From IMG/VR virus record IMGVR_UViG_3300037761_000250, positions 1 to 64,000 of that record: DNA of 64,000 nt; one strand, 5' to 3'. The notes beneath the pieces are model-generated. The model was not told the origin of the DNA. It ran no database searches and saw nothing but the letters and a program-made list of their open reading frames with translations. Below are positions 34,328-48,269 of this stretch, one piece after another (position 1 is the first letter of the stretch; each line of letters opens with the position of its first letter). This DNA is from a virus (taxonomy: Duplodnaviria > Caudoviricetes). Made by a program: the position numbers and the translations under genes.

Positions 34328-34547
34328 ATGTCAACTCCAAATTTCCTCTTTCGTCATATTCAAAGTTCAGCTTTGTTACATCGACGACAAAGGACTTAGG
34401 AAGTGAAATATATCCACCAGCATGTTTTACCACACCGGCCAAAAGCTTAGTTACCGTCAAGAAAGCTTCTACTTCCTTTAGGTCTTGAGTTTTGGACACG
34501 ATAGATACGTAATCATCGATCAATTTGCCCTCAAAGTCCCCTACCAC
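34287..34547 (-). CDS. Hypothetical protein
   Basis: ORF in operon. Confidence 0.55.
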   Translation of the reverse strand: MVGDFEGKLIDDYVSIVSKTQDLKEVEAFLTVTKLLAGVVKHAGGYISLPKSFVVDVTKLNFEYDERGNLELTYGRPILARKSTLS

Positions 34548-34738
34548 TTTTCATTCTCCCAATTTTGGTAGACAATCCAAGCATATTTGGTTCCATGCTT
34601 TCCATACCAATTGAACAAAGCACGCTTACGTTGCGAATCCGAACGCAGATTATTTAAGTAATTTACATCTTTGTCTGTTAGTTCACCTATGTATCGATAT
34701 CTATTTATAGGTGTTTCACTTACCCATTCAATTACCAT
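34541..34738 (-). CDS. Hypothetical protein
   Basis: ATG at 34738 directly after stop of a 56-codon ORF (34740-34910). Confidence 0.5.
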   Translation of the reverse strand: MVIEWVSETPINRYRYIGELTDKDVNYLNNLRSDSQRKRALFNWYGKHGTKYAWIVYQNWENEKW

Positions 34739-34933
34739 ATTACGAAAATACAATGCCAGCAGCAGTGAACAGGCCATTATCTACTAGGCAAACGGGTAAA
34801 TAATTTGCTGTACTATGAAATTTCCTCGGTGCACCTGCTGGCAATCGAACTCCATTTTCAAAAAGCCATGCCTCTTTGGTCATATTGGTCGGATTAATAT
34901 AAATTCCCATTTCTACCTTCTTTCTTTTAGGAG

Positions 34934-35006
34934 TGCCCCCAACAGGATTCGAACCTGCGACCTTCGCATTAAAAGTGCGTAGCTCTGGCCACTGAGCTAT
35001 GGAGGC
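34934..35006 (-). tRNA. trnK: tRNA-Lys(UUU)
   Basis: Cloverleaf: GCCTCCA/TGGGGGC acceptor, loop CT-TTT-AA, GGTTCGAATCC T arm. Confidence 0.92.
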
Positions 35007-35056
35007 AAAAATGGGGAGGCTATATGCCTCCCCGTTTTTATTTCAACAAATATGTT

Positions 35057-35557
35057 CTACAGTCCTACCTCAGTTGCTGCATGTTCCGCTTGCTTTGTGG
35101 TAAATCCTTCGAATTCCAACTGCTCGATCAGTCCTTGACGGGAGAAGTTCGAGAACTCAAGGTAATTCTCGGCACTACCAACAGCCTGCGCCATCCAGTC
35201 TACATCTAGATAATCAACCGCGAACTCGGCATCTTCCGTAGAGAATCCTTCGAGTTCTAATTGATTAATAAGTCCCTTGCGGGAGAAATTGAAAATATCC
35301 AGGTAATTTTGAGCCGATCCAGTTGCTTGTTTCTGGGCAGTTGTCAACTCTGGATCGGTTGACATTTCTGTTTCTTTATTATTCTCAGGTTGAACGGTAA
35401 TGTTATCGCTCTGTCCTAAAGACGTAAGGGTAACAATTGTACCAAGAAGACACATCCCCAAAATTCCAACTAATACAATTAGAACAATCCTTCTTGTTTT
35501 GTTCTTCTTCTTTTTCGGAGGAAACTCTCCGTTTTGTTGTGGATAATACTGTGTCAC
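35057..35557 (-). CDS. Ltp-family lipoprotein (superinfection exclusion-like)
   Basis: TM helix then two SA.NYL....FSR.GLI.QL..EGF repeats. Confidence 0.85.
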   Translation of the reverse strand: MTQYYPQQNGEFPPKKKKNKTRRIVLIVLVGILGMCLLGTIVTLTSLGQSDNITVQPENNKETEMSTDPELTTAQKQATGSAQNYLDIFNFSRKGLINQLELEGFSTEDAEFAVDYLDVDWMAQAVGSAENYLEFSNFSRQGLIEQLEFEGFTTKQAEHAATEVGL

Positions 35558-35604
35558 TAAATTCCTTTCAAGTATTTAAGATATAATATATGGTTTCACT
35601 TGCG

Positions 35605-35677
35605 TAGTCCCAATGGGATTTGAACCCATGTCTCCGGAGCGAAAATCCGGAATCCTTGGCCACTAGACGATGGAACC
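35605..35677 (-). tRNA. trnE: tRNA-Glu(UUC)
   Basis: GGTTCCA/TGGGACT acceptor, CCGGA-TT-TTC-GC-TCCGG anticodon arm, GGTTCAAATCC. Confidence 0.9.
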
Positions 35678-35679
35678 AG

Positions 35680-35779
35680 GGAATAGTGTTGCGGTTGGAA
35701 ATTCCGCCTCCGTGCCTCACTATTGCTCAATGGCAAGATTACTCGGCAAGGTACCTTCCACGGCCCTCTTCACTATTCC
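35680..35779 (-). ncRNA. Candidate 100-nt structured RNA between tRNA-Glu and tRNA-Gln
   Basis: Terminal 9-bp helix GGAATAGTG/CACTATTCC, internal CCGTG/CACGG and hairpins. Confidence 0.45.
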
Positions 35780-35780
35780 G

Positions 35781-35852
35781 CTGGGATACCAAGATTCGAA
35801 CTTGGACTGTCGGAACCAAAATCCGATGGCCTGCCATTTAGCCTATATCCCA
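35781..35852 (-). tRNA. trnQ: tRNA-Gln(UUG)
   Basis: TGGGATA/TATCCCA acceptor, TCGGA-TT-TTG-GT-TCCGA, AGTTCGAATCT. Confidence 0.9.
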
Positions 35853-35856
35853 TTGC

Positions 35857-36290
35857 AGTGTTGAGGTTATTCACGTCTCTAGAAAGTAAACGGACAAAGA
35901 AAACTTTCGAGCCGAAGAACAGGAATGTTTGGAGCCATTCCTGCATTGTTCTTAAAACAATTGTTCCCTCAACACTACGCTTATTGAACCCACGTCAGTG
36001 ACCTAAGATGATTAACAGCCTGTGATGTTAATTTATCATCTTATATTAGATGGTCATTGACGTGGGTCTTTCACAACTCAGGACTTGACTAATAATCAAG
36101 TAAGGCGCCTGAGCTAGCTTTAAGTGGGTATCGTGGTTGCCAGCCCATACCCAGTAAATCTCACCTGGCCGAACAGATGTATTCACAGTGCGTCGGTGCA
36201 CAGACAGAGCGTTCTATTGTCCAAACGGGTCAGGGTGCTTGAGCAATTAACGGGTGTCTTTACCATTTGTTAGTAAAATTTACTAACATC
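35857..36290 (-). ncRNA. Candidate structured ncRNA region
   Basis: Consecutive stems 35857-35866/35967-35976, 35988-36003/36052-36067 and further hairpins; no credible ORF. Confidence 0.55.
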
Positions 36291-36294
36291 GACG

Positions 36295-36436
36295 TGGGGC
36301 GGACAGGACTTGAACCTGTATCCTGCTGTCGTCGTTCACCCACCGGAAACCTCGCCTTGGTTGGCTACTCAGCCCAGCTATTTTCCAGCTTAACAGGTGG
36401 TGCTAGCACGCAGCTCTACCGTTGAGCTACCGCCCC
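36295..36436 (-). tRNA. Atypical 142-nt tRNA with ~69-nt structured insertion (Ala-like body, possible AGC anticodon)
   Basis: GGGGCGG/CCGCCCC acceptor, GCTC/GAGC D stem, ACAGG-TTCAAGT-CCTGT T arm; insertion folds into three hairpins. Confidence 0.7.
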
Positions 36437-36438
36437 TC

Positions 36439-36742
36439 GATGGAGGAAAATGGCCATTCCCTCCATCTATCTACATTTGTTTAAGGAAAATAAACGTAGA
36501 AAACAACCCCACAGTTTAGGATGCACGTCCCGAGATAGCGGTTCTCACAACTTTTGTGTGACTTGTCACGAACCACCAGCTAAAGAAGTTTGTAAACGTG
36601 CATTCCAAACTTCTTTACTGGTTCAGTCGATGACGAGGAGTAAGTTGCCAACTCACCTCGAACCTCACGCAGTCGAGGCCAAGCGTCCAGTTTTGGTTTT
36701 GTTCACTTTAAGTGAACCAAGGTGTAACTGGAAAACACCTCG
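36439..36742 (-). ncRNA. Candidate ~300-nt structured ncRNA
   Basis: Stems gatggagg/cctccatc, 36581-36592/36606-36617, gttcact/agtgaac; loop complementary to 36521-36528. Confidence 0.55.
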
Positions 36743-36815
36743 TGCGCCAAGTAGGATTTGAACCTACACTATACCGGGCTTAAACCGGTTGCCTCTACCG
36801 TTGGGCTATTAGCGC
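36743..36815 (-). tRNA. trnL: tRNA-Leu(UAA) with short variable loop
   Basis: GCGCTAA/TTGGCGC acceptor, ACCGG-TT-TAA-GC-CCGGT, 5-nt variable region, GGTTCAAATCC. Confidence 0.85.
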
Positions 36816-36829
36816 GTCTAAATGAGTTG

Positions 36830-37791
36830 TTTAATTTATTATTTACCACTTAATGTGGAAGTGTCGCGTCGACTTTGCAACTCAGTATCCGGCGGTCCTT
36901 CTTGTTTAAGACAGTGTATCTGTCACCGTCAATACTGGACACTTCCACATTAAGTGGTCAATAATAAATTAAAAGTTAAAAAGTTGTGAGTAGTCCCGGA
37001 CGGATTAGTCTTAGTCTGTTCTCCCAGGCCGGGACACCCAGTTCCAGAACTTTTAGTGCGCGCGCTCCGTGGTCTCGTCGCCGAGATTGCATACTCACAA
37101 CTTGGACAATAGCCAATATATCTAGATATACTGACTATTATCACTTGGGCACATAACTAGATGTCGTTTAATACCGAGGTTCTCCAACCAGGTACCCCAA
37201 GCTTAGTAAAGGTCAACAGACGAATAATAATCCCCTATCCGTTCTGCCCGTTACCGGATTTTCGACCTTCACTGATTCAACTTTTGGAACTACGGCGTCG
37301 ACCAAACCGCACTTGCCTCTTTAATCCCTATGCCTAATCCTGACGGACAGGTCTCCCTCACGGGTGGCCACGGGCCGCAACGCAGAGCTACCTCGTTACG
37401 GTAGATGCGGTTCCTAACCCTTATCAATCCCGGAGGATGATAAGGAATTAATTTGTCCATCGTGACGACAATGTTTGCTCCGTCCATGAACTTTCGGTTT
37501 GACCAGAGGAACTATTGCGCGGATTCAGGCAATTAATCTCACGATTAATGCAATCTCCGAGGAGATTATCTTTGCTCATCGCTCACACTTCCGGAGTGTC
37601 CACCGGAAGACTCCTACCACCGACAGGGAAAATTCGAAGGTATGCCTTTAGTTCGCTAAGCTGAACAGGTCATGACTCCTGCGTGCCACATCCGTGGAAG
37701 TACCACTGTTATATGACATACCAACGTTTTAGGTGTCCCGTTTTTCGCGCACCTTCGGGACCACAAGGCGAGGAAGCATTAAATGCCGCGG
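36830..37791 (-). ncRNA. Candidate large structured ncRNA (~960 nt)
   Basis: 36-bp IR (35/36) at 36830-36865/36938-36973, 12-bp helix 36981-36992/37092-37103, many hairpins, no credible ORF. Confidence 0.6.
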
Positions 37792-37865
37792 TGGCGGGGA
37801 CGGGATTTGAACCCGTGAACTCCAGATTATGAGTCTGGCGTGGTACCGAACTCCACTACCCCGCG
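37792..37865 (-). tRNA. trnM: tRNA-Met(CAU), initiator-like
   Basis: CGCGGGG 5' end with C1xC72 mismatch, CCAGA-CT-CAT-AA-TCTGG, TTCAAAT T loop. Confidence 0.88.
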
Positions 37866-38185
37866 TCACGTAGCGGTTGGTTAGGCCGCTACGGTCGGGA
37901 ACCACCCGACAAGTCCAAGAGAAATATTAATTCCTAACCGATTATAGGATCGTTATTCTCTTGGAGGTTTGAGTGGGCGCCTGTTCAGTCTATCGTATTG
38001 GCGACAATCCCTTGACGCCTCAAAAGTCAGGCCGGTCGTTTAAAACATTCCAGCGCGTGTAAGAATGTCCCCACGTGTATTTCTAAGAATTCAATTGTCA
38101 ATGTCCGTTTGCTGCCCGTTTGTGGCCCGTTCGGGCGCCTCTCGCCCTATCGTAGCGCATGGGCGGGCAGGCGCGCAACCCGGTA

Positions 38186-38219
38186 TCAAGATCAAGTTAC
38201 TCGAGTAACTTGATCTTGA
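38186..38219. promoter_or_regulatory. Perfect 34-bp palindrome upstream of tRNA/ncRNA cluster
   Basis: tcaagatcaagttactc|gagtaacttgatcttga. Confidence 0.7.
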
Positions 38220-38236
38220 CGAATAGGACTGGTGTA

Positions 38237-38479
38237 CTAATGCTGTTTATTCCAGGCCAAATCAAACGCATCATCCGCATCATCATTGGATGGTCCAATT
38301 GAATTAGTCGGATCAGGTGGTGGCAATGGAACTACACTAGTTGGTAATGTAAAATTATCCGTCGGTCTATCTTTAACTAGCCAATTAATAATTTCCCATG
38401 GAATCCAAATTAGTGCTCCAAACCCGCAAGTCAGTATGGTAATAATGCACAGGAATAGTCTTATTTTTCTTGATTCCAT
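38237..38479 (-). CDS. Small membrane protein
   Basis: N-terminal TM, Pro-rich then acidic tail. Confidence 0.65.
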   Translation of the reverse strand: MESRKIRLFLCIITILTCGFGALIWIPWEIINWLVKDRPTDNFTLPTSVVPLPPPDPTNSIGPSNDDADDAFDLAWNKQH

Positions 38480-38490
38480 GTATATATACC

Positions 38491-38730
38491 TTACACTGAT
38501 AGCAGTTCATTCTTAACTAAGTAATTAAAGCTTACATCACTTAGCCATAGATTTATTCCATAATTATTAACGTCCGCAGTTACTGCGAAACTGCTACCAT
38601 ATGGTAAATCTTCACGTTCCATCAAAGACTTAACTAACTCATTTACTGTTTCTCGTTTTGCTTGAACGTGGTGTGGAAATACATCGGGCAAATTCTTTTG
38701 GTAAATTGACATATTAATTTCACTTACCAA
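38491..38730 (-). CDS. Hypothetical protein
   Basis: ORF in operon. Confidence 0.55.
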   Translation of the reverse strand: MVSEINMSIYQKNLPDVFPHHVQAKRETVNELVKSLMEREDLPYGSSFAVTADVNNYGINLWLSDVSFNYLVKNELLSV

Positions 38731-38996
38731 TCTTTTCTATGTTGAGAAATGTGAAGTCCTCTTGACTTTAGCATTTCTTCAAGTCTGTCTACCTTTAAAA
38801 TAGACAGAGCCTGCTTGTCTAATGCCTCTTCTACTTCCTCAATGACAGGTGGTGTTGAACTTAATTTAGTAGGTTTATATTCTTCACGACAAGACTTACA
38901 ACGTACTGGTGGTCGACCGCGCCCTCCTCGAATTTTAAATTCCTGACGACAGTCTCGGCAAACACGAGTATTAGTTAACACTGTTAATAATTCCAA
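38724..38996 (-). CDS. Zn-binding hypothetical protein
   Basis: CRDC...GRPPVRCKSC. Confidence 0.6.
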   Translation of the reverse strand: MELLTVLTNTRVCRDCRQEFKIRGGRGRPPVRCKSCREEYKPTKLSSTPPVIEEVEEALDKQALSILKVDRLEEMLKSRGLHISQHRKDW

Positions 38997-39192
38997 TCAC
39001 TAGAACAATAATTGCAAAGATTGCAATTATTATGAATGGCCAGCCCGTAAAATGTTCACCATCACTATCACCATTACCATTCCAGTCGGGCATTTTTATT
39101 CTCCAAGATCATTTTGTAGGTACACTAATGTTAATCCATTTCATAGGTGGTAAGAGGAGGAGTGCCGAGCGTCCATAACGACACTCCTCCAG

Positions 39193-39266
39193 TGGGACAA
39201 GAGGGACTTGAACCCCCGACCGATCGATTATGAGTCGACTGCTCTAACCAGCTGAGCTATTGTCCC
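39193..39266 (-). tRNA. tRNA(CAU), elongator Met or Ile2
   Basis: GGGACAA/TTGTCCC acceptor, GTCGA-CT-CAT-AA-TCGAT, GGTTCAAGTCC; anticodon arm resembles Ile2 tRNAs. Confidence 0.88.
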
Positions 39267-39311
39267 AACAATGACGCAGCTTCTATAACTACGCCATGTT
39301 AATTTGGGTGT

Positions 39312-39581
39312 TTAACTCTTTGCTATTAATCCCAATATATTCAATAATGCCTCTGCACTAGTTTTAGCTTCTTGTAATTCATTCTTTATTTCTTCTAATG
39401 TTCCAGACAGAATTGGTTCCTCTGATTCTGAGCTATACAAAACATATACTTTAATTGATTTGTATCCAATTACCCTTTTGTATTCATATGTTCCATCAGG
39501 TAATGGATATTCAGTAGTTATTTTATCAGTAATTGGTCGTAGTACGTCAGGTTGATTTTCAAATCGAAAAAAGAATTTCAT
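39312..39581 (-). CDS. Hypothetical protein
   Basis: ORF with upstream AGGTAG. Confidence 0.55.
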   Translation of the reverse strand: MKFFFRFENQPDVLRPITDKITTEYPLPDGTYEYKRVIGYKSIKVYVLYSSESEEPILSGTLEEIKNELQEAKTSAEALLNILGLIAKS

Positions 39582-39755
39582 CTAACTACCTATTTAACTG
39601 GTGAAGTGATTGACAAGTGTGATGACAGCCCAGGCAATCAGTCCCAAAATTCCTAGTCCAAGTAGGGCGCAGAACGCGAACCATAGCATGAACCACCAGG
39701 GCATACCAGGAAGCTCCGGCTTACGGTCAGAGAATCGCATTATTTGTATCCTTTC

Positions 39756-39944
39756 TTAGCAAACACAATTCTCAGTTAGGCGCACAAACCATGCACTTGG
39801 GGACCAATGATCGGAATAGCGAGCGGTTACCCACCCATCTTCATCCTCCTCTAAGATGACTTCGGCATTCCTCTCCGTTGCTTTTCGTTCCATATCTTTC
39901 AAGGTGCAATAATTACATCTGGTCAGTGTACTCATCTCAGTCAT
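39756..39944 (-). CDS. Small Cys-containing protein
   Basis: CNYC and terminal CVC. Confidence 0.55.
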   Translation of the reverse strand: MTEMSTLTRCNYCTLKDMERKATERNAEVILEEDEDGWVTARYSDHWSPSAWFVRLTENCVC

Positions 39945-48169: not shown

Positions 48170-48269
48170 TGTCCGCGTGTGGAATCGAACCACACCCACC
48201 CTGCCCAACCGTATTAGAGCGGTTGAATGCTGGGCTACGCTAAAAGTAGTATTACCTTCCAGCACGGAC
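48170..48269 (-). ncRNA. tRNA-like element (100 nt) with non-canonical D/anticodon region
   Basis: GTCCGTG/CGCGGAC acceptor-like stem, TGTGG-TTCGATT-CCACA T arm, CAACCG/CGGTTG stem with 8-nt CTCTAATA loop. Confidence 0.6.

What the first reader, a model, noticed from the sequence alone, without database searches (positions are those of the whole stretch)
36295..36436. tRNA with perfect acceptor, D and T arms but a ~69-nt three-hairpin insertion
Seen (minus strand): GGGGCGG/CCGCCCC acceptor, GCTC/GAGC D stem and canonical T arm, total 142 nt. The extra sequence forms CCACC/GGTGG closing hairpins AGCTG-GAAAA-TAGCT, GGCT-GAGT-AGCC and AACC/GGTT. One fold gives a weak anticodon arm CT-AGC-AC (Ala, AGC anticodon, rare in bacteria) plus a giant variable arm; the other replaces the anticodon loop with the insert. 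The Ala identity pair G3:U70 is absent (G3:C70). Inference: a tRNA mimic/decoy (for example against anticodon nucleases or T-box/RelA sensing), or a tRNA carrying a novel mini-intron.
Basis: partly seen in the sequence, partly recalled or inferred. Interest (0 to 1): 0.75.

Follow-up and report, generated by a model that had tools for sequence, protein, structure and literature searches.

The report
Phage tRNA look-alike with extra domain
A 142-base gene in a phage's tRNA cluster has a complete tRNA body, but a 70-base folded insert splits its anticodon stem and the mark needed for alanine charging is missing, so it is more likely a tRNA mimic than a working or intron-bearing tRNA, though nothing shows what it does.

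Summary
Window 36295-36436 (minus strand) is a 142-nt tRNA-type gene (Rfam tRNA 45.8 bits, cut-off 29) with flawless acceptor, D and T arms.

Removing exactly 70 nt between tRNA positions 41 and 42 restores a perfect 5-bp anticodon stem with loop CUAGCAC. Only 0.2% of shuffled sequences do this.

The body resembles actinobacterial tRNA-Ala, but every acceptor pair is Watson-Crick (G3:C70), so AlaRS should not charge it.

No known ribozyme or intron family matches the insert. The phage encodes no RNA ligase, RtcB or PNKP-type phosphatase. I found no homologue or second copy of the insert.

Related phages (SNF2 helicase 55-66% identical, same gene order) carry many tRNA look-alikes with overgrown anticodon arms (81-162 nt) at this locus. 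Five of nine also carry Ro60/Rsr and YrlA-like Y RNAs there. This phage has neither.

Best reading (about 45%): a non-decoding tRNA mimic whose tRNA body gives processing and stability and whose extra domain is a binding handle. Rivals: a spliced or insert-tolerant tRNA(AGC), or a dead gene.

No expression data could be obtained. Other agents in this scan have reported other kinds of insert-bearing phage tRNAs on other DNA.

The parts
36430..36436 (-). Acceptor stem, 5' strand (gene nt 1-7)
   Evidence: Seven Watson-Crick pairs with 36296-36302.
36413..36427 (-). D arm (nt 10-24): 4-bp stem and 7-nt loop with GG
   Evidence: Aligned to Rfam tRNA at posterior probability near 1. A14, A15, G18, G19 and A21 are present.
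36410..36411 (-). First two pairs of the anticodon stem, 5' side (nt 26-27, G and C; tRNA positions 27-28)
   Evidence: Pair with nt 111-112 (window 36325-36326). This is Rfam's own alignment and part of the single best deletion solution.
36397..36409 (-). Anticodon-like hairpin (nt 28-40): 3-bp stem and loop CUAGCAC (U33, AGC, A37). It lies within a 10-nt palindrome that can also form a shifted 4-nt-loop hairpin.
   Evidence: The restorable arm is seen in 0.2% of shuffles.
36327..36396 (-). 70-nt insert between tRNA positions 41 and 42 (nt 41-110)
   Evidence: Unique best deletion. No Rfam family at E<=1. No second copy in the genome.
36382..36399 (-). Rod, 5' strand (nt 38-55), with the 5-nt bulge GUUAA. 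In this fold nt 38-40 are borrowed from the anticodon-like hairpin.
   Evidence: Lowest-energy cloverleaf-compatible fold, -49.9 kcal/mol.
36350..36381 (-). Distal 32 nt of the insert (nt 56-87). Holds the small hairpin GGCU-GAGU-AGCC and the words GGGCUGA and GGCGAGG, which resemble Ro60/Rsr-site motifs.
   Evidence: Motif comparison with Chen et al. 2014 (PMC4201824) and with phage YrlA-like 5' ends. The motif match is weak (about 3% by chance).
36337..36349 (-). Rod, 3' strand (nt 88-100)
36327..36336 (-). 10-nt unpaired linker AACGACGACA (nt 101-110)
36325..36326 (-). First two pairs of the anticodon stem, 3' side (nt 111-112; tRNA positions 42-43)
36320..36324 (-). Variable loop AGGAU (nt 113-117). 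U48 can pair with A15.
36303..36319 (-). T arm (nt 118-134): 5-bp stem and loop UUCAAGU
36295..36302 (-). Acceptor stem, 3' strand, plus discriminator A73. CCA is not encoded; the next base is C, as for all six tRNAs of the cluster.
34934..39266 (-). Surrounding tRNA cluster: Lys UUU, Glu UUC, Gln UUG, Leu UAA and two CAU tRNAs, all on the same strand

Best explanation
This is a real RNA gene derived from an actinobacterial-type tRNA-Ala gene. It is most likely made as one 142-nt RNA and used as a non-decoding tRNA mimic.

Shown:
- The whole tRNA body (acceptor, D arm, variable loop, T arm and the bases that build the L-shape) is intact.
- Its flanks look like those of the neighbouring tRNAs.
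- The alanine charging mark is missing.
- A 70-nt folded domain branches from the anticodon stem between positions 41 and 42.

Inferred:
- The tRNA body recruits RNase P, 3' trimming and CCA addition, and makes the RNA stable and recognisable to tRNA-binding proteins.
- The added domain (a 13-bp bulged rod, a 32-nt distal part and a 10-nt linker that is single-stranded in most folds) is the working handle that binds a partner.

This is the design logic of bacterial and phage Y RNAs (YrlA), in which a tRNA-like module is joined to a stem bound by Ro60/Rsr. Because this phage has no Ro60 gene, the partner would be a host protein, either Rsr or another tRNA-directed factor, which the RNA recruits or soaks up.
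For: - **Intact tRNA core:** Rfam tRNA 45.8 bits, full length. All stems are Watson-Crick, and U8, A14, A15:U48, G18G19 and the T loop are present.
- **Same context as real tRNAs:** same strand, and the same 3' context (discriminator followed by C, no encoded CCA) as the six tRNAs of the cluster.
- **Not chargeable as Ala:** G3:C70 and no G:U pair in the acceptor stem. That G3:U70 is the main AlaRS determinant is established knowledge.
- **Ala-type ancestry:** with the insert removed, 54 of 72 nt match a tRNA-Ala(UGC) of an Actinomycetota MAG, and 57 of 72 match the 81-nt look-alike L083:5315-5395. The match to the phage's own tRNAs is 41-52 of 72. Its first 25 nt match that look-alike at 23 of 25.
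- **Related phages carry many expanded look-alikes at the same locus:** sizes are 81-162 nt in L083, L086, L087, L088, L109 and L111. None of the 13 tested there has a restorable anticodon arm (best score 10 of 12).
- **Ro60/Rsr and Y RNAs share that locus:** five of nine relatives encode TROVE/Ro60 there, with YrlA-like RNAs at 29-44 bits, E down to 1e-6.
- **Nothing supports splicing:** no ribozyme or intron family match, and no RtcB, RNA ligase or PNKP-type phosphatase in the phage.
Against: - The anticodon arm is restorable far better than chance. A pure mimic does not need this, and none of the relatives' look-alikes shows it.
- This phage has no TROVE, DUF2828 or YrlA, so no partner is identified.
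- Across 55 IMG/VR phage rsr loci, only 2-3 long open-acceptor tRNA look-alikes were found. The link to Ro60 may therefore be mere co-location in one clade's RNA island.
- The Ro-site-like words in the insert are weak (about 3% by chance for GGNCYGA).
- No homologue of the insert exists, so there is no covariation evidence.
Confidence: 0.45

Rival explanations
1. It is a decoding tRNA with anticodon AGC whose 70-nt insert is either cut out and the ends rejoined (a new kind of bacterial or phage tRNA intron in the anticodon stem) or tolerated as an extra arm. The tRNA would then supply reading of GCU codons for an AT-rich phage in a GC-rich host.
For: - Deleting exactly nt 41-110 gives a perfect 5-bp stem with U33 and A37. 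This is the only such solution, and 0.2% of shuffles reach it.
- The phage is 44.9% GC, and GCU is its commonest Ala codon at 36%.
- The other phage tRNAs read A/U-ending codons.
- Other uncultured phages carry tRNAs with 40-65-nt inserts at the mirror-image site 28|29 that also restore perfect arms with ordinary anticodons: L017, L024, L025, L058, L059, L068, L078.
- 'Enigmatic' tRNA introns are reported in Lak phages (PMC6784885).
Against: - G3:C70 and no G:U pair in the acceptor stem, so AlaRS should reject it. No other synthetase is known to read AGC (established knowledge).
- A34 is rare in bacterial tRNAs.
- No ribozyme or intron family match, and no bulge-helix-bulge at the junctions.
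- No ligase or healing enzyme in the phage.
- No insert-free homologue anywhere searched.
- ARAGORN's intron mode gives only an implausible Arg(CCG) model.
Confidence: 0.25
2. It is a dead gene: a former tRNA-Ala disrupted by a chance insertion and no longer used.
For: - It is a singleton: no homologue of the insert in phage, viral, metagenome or genome collections.
- The charging determinant is lost.
- About 1.4 kb of flanking DNA has no convincing ORF and no Rfam match at E<=1, so the region tolerates non-coding DNA.
- The whole-molecule folding z-score is only -1.9.
Against: - All 16 stem pairs of the acceptor, D and T arms and every conserved tertiary base are intact. Decay would erode these.
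- There is no target-site duplication, no terminal repeats and no second copy that would mark a mobile insertion.
- Expanded tRNA look-alikes recur many times in related phages, which argues that such expansions are kept rather than accidental.
Confidence: 0.2

Closest known systems
YrlA-type bacterial and mycobacteriophage Y RNAs bound by Ro60/Rsr (Rfam RF02553; Chen et al. 2014, PMC4201824)
   Same: Both join a tRNA-like module (D arm, T arm, acceptor-like stem, variable loop) to a long non-tRNA stem at the place of the anticodon stem. YrlA is processed by tRNA enzymes (RNase P, CCA addition and tRNA modifications, per PMC4201824). YrlA-like RNAs and rsr occupy the same locus in five related phages.
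   Different: YrlA is circularly permuted: its ends lie in the long stem and its acceptor is closed by a loop. This RNA has an open acceptor and a closed extra domain. The Rfam YrlA model does not match it (best 9.3 bits, partial). No rsr is present in this genome. The Rsr-site motif is only approximated.
'Enigmatic' introns in tRNA genes of Lak megaphages (Devoto et al. 2019, PMC6784885)
   Same: A phage tRNA gene is interrupted by a short insert of unknown removal mechanism, and deleting the insert restores a cloverleaf.
   Different: As far as the paper's text and method show (they were predicted with eukaryote-type tRNA intron settings, and one is itself tRNA-shaped), the Lak inserts are anticodon-loop introns in tRNAs with ordinary identities. 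Some relatives lack them. Here the insert sits in the 3' strand of the anticodon stem (41|42), is not tRNA-shaped, and the host tRNA lacks its charging determinant. No insert-free relative was found.
Phage T4 species 1 RNA (rnaC, 139 nt), a stable RNA of unknown function in the T4 tRNA cluster
   Same: A stable-RNA gene of about 140 nt inside a phage tRNA cluster, with a canonical T arm and an acceptor-like stem (L082:1409-1547).
   Different: rnaC has no recognisable D arm or anticodon arm (Rfam tRNA-Sec 17.5 bits only). It shows no sequence relation to this RNA.
IMG/VR phage tRNAs with an insert between positions 28 and 29
   Same: An insert of 50-61 nt branches from the anticodon stem at the same helical level (pairs 28:42 and 29:41), and a perfect anticodon arm is restored on deletion.
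   Different: Those inserts are on the 5' strand. They begin with UA(A/U), and GUUAY lies at or within 5 nt of their 3' end. This junction is also seen in the permuted phage YrlA-like RNA L086:953-1053. The insert here is on the 3' strand and has no sequence similarity to them.

Membership tests
Canonical decoding tRNA (Rfam RF00005; tRNA-Ala) | Cloverleaf core: 7-bp acceptor, D arm, T arm with UUCRANY loop, conserved tertiary bases | tested here: met
   45.8 bits against a gathering score of 29, full model; sequence.
Canonical decoding tRNA (Rfam RF00005; tRNA-Ala) | Uninterrupted 5-bp anticodon stem with 7-nt loop; total length about 70-95 nt | tested here: not met
   70 nt lie between positions 41 and 42, and the gene is 142 nt long. 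ARAGORN in default mode does not call it.
Canonical decoding tRNA (Rfam RF00005; tRNA-Ala) | G3:U70, the AlaRS identity pair | tested here: not met
   G3:C70; all seven acceptor pairs are Watson-Crick. By contrast, the tRNA-Ala(UGC) genes at L087:3914-3986 and in L101 have G3:U70.
YrlA / Y RNA (RF02553) | Match to the family covariance model | tested here: not met
   No hit at E<=5 in 34500-39800. The best hit in the whole genome is 9.3-10.8 bits and partial.
YrlA / Y RNA (RF02553) | Encoded within about 4 kb of rsr (TROVE) on the same strand (criterion of PMC4201824) | tested here: not met
   No TROVE by Pfam search, and no remnant by tblastn with four relatives' Rsr proteins. The criterion is met for look-alikes in relatives L083, L086, L087, L088 and L109.
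YrlA / Y RNA (RF02553) | Rsr-site motif GNCGAAN0-1G, or GGUCCGA-like | tested here: inconclusive
   Only near matches are present: GGGCUGA (fits GGNCYGA), GGCGAGG and GACGACAG, the last two each one mismatch from the motif. The chance level is about 3% or higher.
YrlA / Y RNA (RF02553) | Bound by Ro60/Rsr | not testable with these tools
   Needs immunoprecipitation or in vitro binding.
Self-splicing introns and small self-cleaving ribozymes (Rfam families) | Match to any group I/II intron, hammerhead, twister, pistol, hatchet or HDV-like model | tested here: not met
   tRNA was the only family at E<=1 in 36200-36550. At 70 nt the insert is far below group I intron size.
Archaeal/eukaryal protein-spliced tRNA introns | Bulge-helix-bulge motif at both junctions | tested here: not met
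   The 5' junction lies inside a helix or directly at the hairpin end, and the 3' junction follows the 10-nt linker. No fold places two 3-nt bulges 4 bp apart.
'ACAGCAA-handle' RNAs paired with DUF2828 Ro60-like proteins (reported by other agents of this scan) | Short clamp helix plus ACAGCAA; DUF2828 gene in the genome | tested here: not met
   Only ACAGCAG is present, at the insert/stem junction, with no adjacent clamp helix. No DUF2828 in the genome.

The most novel reading that the evidence does not exclude
This RNA would be an 'unpermuted Y RNA': a tRNA-shaped RNA with an open acceptor end that can receive CCA, whose anticodon stem carries a Ro60/Rsr-binding domain. A phage that has lost its own rsr would use it to capture or redirect the host's Rsr-PNPase RNA-degrading machine. 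If so, the mirror-image phage tRNAs with inserts at 28|29, including ones with normal anticodons, would be chimeras of tRNA and Y RNA.
Probability: 0.1. Interest if true: 0.8.

Novelty: new variant of a known kind. Interest (0 to 1): 0.5.

Why it matters
Phage tRNA genes with unexplained inserts have been on record since 2019 without a mechanism. tRNA mimicry by Y RNAs is known, but its purpose is not.

This element sits where those two puzzles meet:
- It has a flawless tRNA body.
- It has lost its charging mark.
- It carries a large folded domain at a defined point in the anticodon stem.
- It belongs to a phage lineage whose relatives place Ro60, Y RNAs and many overgrown tRNA look-alikes at the same locus.

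If the RNA is stable and binds a host factor, phages would be shown to build custom RNA tools on tRNA scaffolds. If it is spliced, it would be a new intron position and splicing route in bacteria. Either result can be tested with ordinary RNA blots and binding assays once a host is known.

Tried and rejected
**Known RNA families.** tRNA was the only family at E<=1 in 36200-36550; elsewhere in the cluster region only weak, sub-threshold chance-level matches appeared.

**ARAGORN intron mode.** It returns tRNA-Arg(CCG) with a 57-nt intron, a mismatched anticodon stem and an odd variable arm. I rejected this.

**Searches for a homologue of the insert or of the whole gene.** All were negative:
- blastn against 50,697 phage records.
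- Exact 27-mer of the insert in IMG/VR.
- Anticodon-arm pattern in IMG/VR.
- CUAGCAC loop plus long gap plus T loop in JGI metagenomes: three unrelated hits.
- The 24-nt scaffold pattern in IMG/VR and in 185,579 species genomes: ordinary tRNAs, tRNA 5' fragments and other look-alikes, but no copy of the insert.
- blastn-short against all fetched loci.
- Search of the phage's own genome for a second copy or an antisense target: best other match 15 of 16 nt, E 0.29.

**rsr in this phage.** No pseudogene remnant in the non-coding flanks.

**Phage-encoded splicing or repair enzymes.** RtcB, RNA_ligase and HAD_PNKP are all absent.

**'ACAGCAA handle' family from earlier notes.** Not met.

**General link between rsr and long open-acceptor tRNA look-alikes.** In 55 IMG/VR rsr loci only 3 candidates turned up, and one of them lies inside the rsr gene on the opposite strand. 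The link is therefore confined to the clade related to this phage.

**Multiple alignment with the relatives' long look-alikes.** Only the tRNA core aligns.

Full report
**What is there**

The window is the first 64 kb of a 79,278-bp IMG/VR virus record rated 100% complete. Its GC content is 44.9%.

The minus strand between 34.9 and 39.3 kb carries six ordinary tRNA genes: Lys UUU, Glu UUC, Gln UUG, Leu UAA and two with anticodon CAU. Among them, Rfam's tRNA model matches 36295-36436(-) over its full length at 45.8 bits (gathering score 29, E 1.4e-6). It places 83 nt where 13 nt of the anticodon arm belong. ARAGORN does not call the gene.

The sequence shows:
- a seven-pair, all Watson-Crick acceptor stem with A73;
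- a 4-bp D stem with a 7-nt loop containing GG;
- the variable loop AGGAU;
- a 5-bp T stem with loop UUCAAGU;
- all the usual tertiary bases (U8, A14, A15 with U48, G18G19).

Like all six neighbouring tRNAs, it has no encoded CCA, and a C follows the discriminator.

**Where the extra sequence sits**

I tried every single deletion between the D and T arms. Only one restores a class-I tRNA. Removing 70 nt between tRNA positions 41 and 42 (window 36327-36396) gives a 5-bp, all Watson-Crick anticodon stem and the loop CUAGCAC, with U33, anticodon AGC and A37. In 5000 dinucleotide-preserving shuffles, such a perfect solution arose 10 times, and 12 times when only the interior was shuffled. The anticodon-like hairpin and its two closing pairs are therefore not chance.

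Three folds compatible with the cloverleaf lie within 6 kcal/mol of each other:
- **Bulged rod, -49.9.** A 13-bp rod with a 5-nt bulge borrows the 3' strand of the hairpin.
A four-way junction with three hairpins.
- **7-nt-loop fold, -43.9.** This keeps the anticodon-like loop.

A 10-nt palindrome lets the hairpin slip between a 7-nt and a 4-nt loop. A 10-nt linker is unpaired in every fold except the 7-nt-loop one, where four of its bases pair.

**What it is not**

- **Not a known ribozyme or intron.** No other Rfam family matches at E<=1, and only weak chance-level matches appear in the wider cluster region. Seventy nt is far too short for a group I intron. The junctions do not form a bulge-helix-bulge.
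- **No phage-encoded splicing enzymes.** The phage has no RtcB, no RNA ligase and no PNKP-type phosphatase.
- **Not a repeated mobile element.** The insert has no second copy in the genome, and the junction sequences show no duplication or terminal repeats.
- **Not chargeable with alanine.** Position 3:70 is G:C, and there is no G:U pair anywhere in the acceptor stem. G3:U70 is the established main determinant for AlaRS. Real tRNA-Ala(UGC) genes with a near-identical 5' half and G3:U70 exist in a related phage (L087:3914-3986) and in an Actinomycetota MAG (L101).

With the insert removed, the gene is 54 of 72 nt identical to the Actinomycetota MAG's tRNA-Ala. It is 41-52 of 72 identical to the phage's own tRNAs. 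I read it as a derivative of tRNA-Ala.

**Relatives**

The phage has WhiB and DUF2786 genes. Its terminase is closest, at about 35% identity, to those of Arthrobacter, Microbacterium and Mycobacterium phages. An actinobacterial host is therefore likely. No close relative exists in the collections.

The neighbouring SNF2 helicase has many homologues at 55-66% identity on 40-90-kb contigs. I fetched nine of these loci. They share the gene order and carry tRNA genes upstream of the helicase, bounded in L083 and L111 by a DUF2786/DUF7168 gene as here.

- **Ro60/Rsr and Y RNAs.** Five of the nine (L083, L086, L087, L088, L109) encode a TROVE/Ro60 (Rsr) protein in this stretch. All five also have RNAs matching Rfam YrlA below threshold (29-44 bits, E down to 1e-6).
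- **Expanded tRNA look-alikes.** The same stretches hold tRNA look-alikes with overgrown anticodon or variable arms:

| Locus | Look-alike sizes (nt) |
|---|---|
| L083 | 81, 83 |
| L086 | 85, 115 |
| L087 | 106 |
| L088 | 148 |
| L109 | 81 |
| L111 | 81, 96, 101, 109, 137, 162 |

- **Closest match.** The 81-nt look-alike L083:5315-5395 lies 209 nt downstream of rsr. It shares 23 of the first 25 nt with the gene studied here.
- **No restorable anticodon arm.** None of these 13 look-alikes (nor L089, a 14th from an IMG/VR contig) can be restored to a canonical anticodon arm; the best score is 10 of 12. They cannot be decoders.

This lineage therefore keeps a locus of RNA genes in which tRNA bodies carry non-tRNA domains. 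The gene studied here is the one member that still shows its anticodon hairpin.

**Limits of the Ro60 link**

- This phage has no TROVE gene, no remnant of one, no DUF2828 and no YrlA.
- L111 also lacks rsr on its 11.8-kb contig, yet it has six look-alikes.
- In 55 phage rsr loci from IMG/VR, my scanner found only three long open-acceptor look-alikes. One of those lies inside the rsr gene on the opposite strand.
- The words in the insert that resemble the Rsr site are weak evidence. GGGCUGA fits GGNCYGA, the pattern at the 5' ends of the phage YrlA-like RNAs, and resembles the vertebrate GGUCCGA (PMC4201824). The chance of such a match is about 3%.

The Ro60 connection is a lead drawn from context, not a finding.

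**Most likely working**

Shown: an intact tRNA core, the same flanks as real tRNAs, loss of the alanine mark, and a structured 70-nt branch at 41|42.

Inferred: the RNA is cut by RNase P, trimmed, given CCA and stabilised like a tRNA, but it is not charged and does not decode. The branch binds a partner. That partner could be host Rsr or some other tRNA-directed host factor, which the RNA recruits or soaks up. I put this at about 45%.

A spliced or insert-tolerant tRNA(AGC) is the main rival, at about 25%. It explains the restorable arm and fits the phage's preference for GCU, which makes up 36% of its Ala codons. It has no charging route and no splicing machinery. A dead gene (about 20%) fits the lack of homologues but not the undamaged core.

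**Comparison with what is known**

- **YrlA-type Y RNAs** have the same logic (a tRNA module plus a long stem) but the opposite topology, and the family model does not match.
- **Lak megaphage tRNA introns** (PMC6784885) are also unexplained inserts but, as far as the paper's text shows, are anticodon-loop introns of otherwise normal tRNAs.
- **T4 rnaC** is an old example of a roughly 140-nt tRNA-cluster RNA with a T arm and an acceptor stem and no known role.
- **Phage tRNAs with inserts at 28|29**, found here in IMG/VR, branch at the same helical level on the other strand. They share their junction words with a permuted phage YrlA-like RNA.

I found no paper describing an insert at 41|42 or an open-acceptor Y-like RNA. 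Earlier notes of this scan report other kinds of insert-bearing phage tRNAs on other DNA. I tested the 'ACAGCAA handle' they describe, and it is not present here.

**Verdict**

The element is a new variant within the known, poorly understood kinds 'tRNA mimic' and 'phage tRNA with an enigmatic insert'. It is a singleton with no expression or covariation evidence, so interest is moderate.

Noticed in passing
window 48170-48269 (-): A second tRNA look-alike of 100 nt lies outside the tRNA cluster. It has a 7-bp acceptor stem, a canonical T arm (loop UUCGAUU) and a four-arm fold with z-score -4.8. Neither Rfam at gathering score nor ARAGORN called it. It lies between two minus-strand ORFs.
   Followed up: partly
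L017, L024, L025, L058, L059, L061, L068, L078, L081 (IMG/VR and one metagenome contig): This is a recurrent class of phage tRNAs (Thr, Ile, Asn, Lys, Glu and others) with a 41-65-nt insert in the 5' strand of the anticodon stem, mostly between positions 28 and 29. In most, deletion restores a perfect anticodon arm (L061 scores 10 of 12). Most of the inserts begin with UA(A/U) and carry GUUAY or GGUUAG at or within a few nt of their 3' end.
   Followed up: partly
L086:953-1053 (with 15-nt flanks): This is a phage YrlA-like RNA. When its 3' tail is joined to its 5' head, it restores a perfect tRNA-Lys-like anticodon arm (loop CUUUUAA), with the Y-RNA stem leaving at 28|29. That is the same junction as in the insert-bearing tRNAs above. 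Its 5' end reads GGACUGAAG, like the Ro60 site GGUCCGA.
   Followed up: partly
L083:5315-5395, L083:2371-2453, L109:1343-1423: This is a conserved family of 81-83-nt tRNA look-alikes. The anticodon arm is about 10 nt too long and has the base AUCCR...YGGAG. Each lies within about 200 nt of rsr or directly beside a YrlA-like RNA.
   Followed up: partly
L111:1480-4107: A 2.6-kb gene-free stretch of a related phage contig is packed with tRNA look-alikes of 81-162 nt. Several have long rod-like anticodon arms containing UAGCUA palindromes. No rsr is present on the 11.8-kb contig.
   Followed up: partly
L089 (minus strand from nt 1773 of the reverse complement): This is an 83-nt tRNA look-alike with an acceptor stem close to the one studied here and an encoded CCA. 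Its anticodon arm is a 6-bp stem around the loop CGAAA (with the closing pair, GCCGAAAG), an exact match to the published Rsr-site motif GNCGAANG. No TROVE gene is present on its 42%-complete contig.
   Followed up: partly
L090 and L091 (IMG/VR): These are about 170-nt elements. They begin with the same 24 nt as the gene studied here (acceptor 5' strand plus D arm) but continue into about 70 nt of other sequence and a second tRNA-like unit with a 9-nt loop containing GUCGAAAA. No matching acceptor 3' strand for the first unit was seen.
   Followed up: no
L012, L013, L018, L032, L035, L043, L049, L050: This is a family of 134-nt phage tRNAs with an intact anticodon arm and a 62-nt insert in the variable region. 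The anticodon loop differs between copies (UCU in some, CUU in others).
   Followed up: no
window 35857-36290 and 36830-37791: These are two stretches without a convincing ORF that flank the tRNA-Leu / odd-tRNA pair. They have no Rfam match at E<=1, only weak microRNA and snoRNA hits at E 1.6-2.4. Only 35857-35968 has weak DNA similarity (72-77%) to related phages (L127:9255-9376, L086:8412-8474).
   Followed up: partly
L115:2658-2757: This is a 100-nt tRNA look-alike in a related rsr-carrying phage. Its insert is in the D loop rather than the anticodon arm, and contains AUCCGAAAC and CCGAGG.
   Followed up: no
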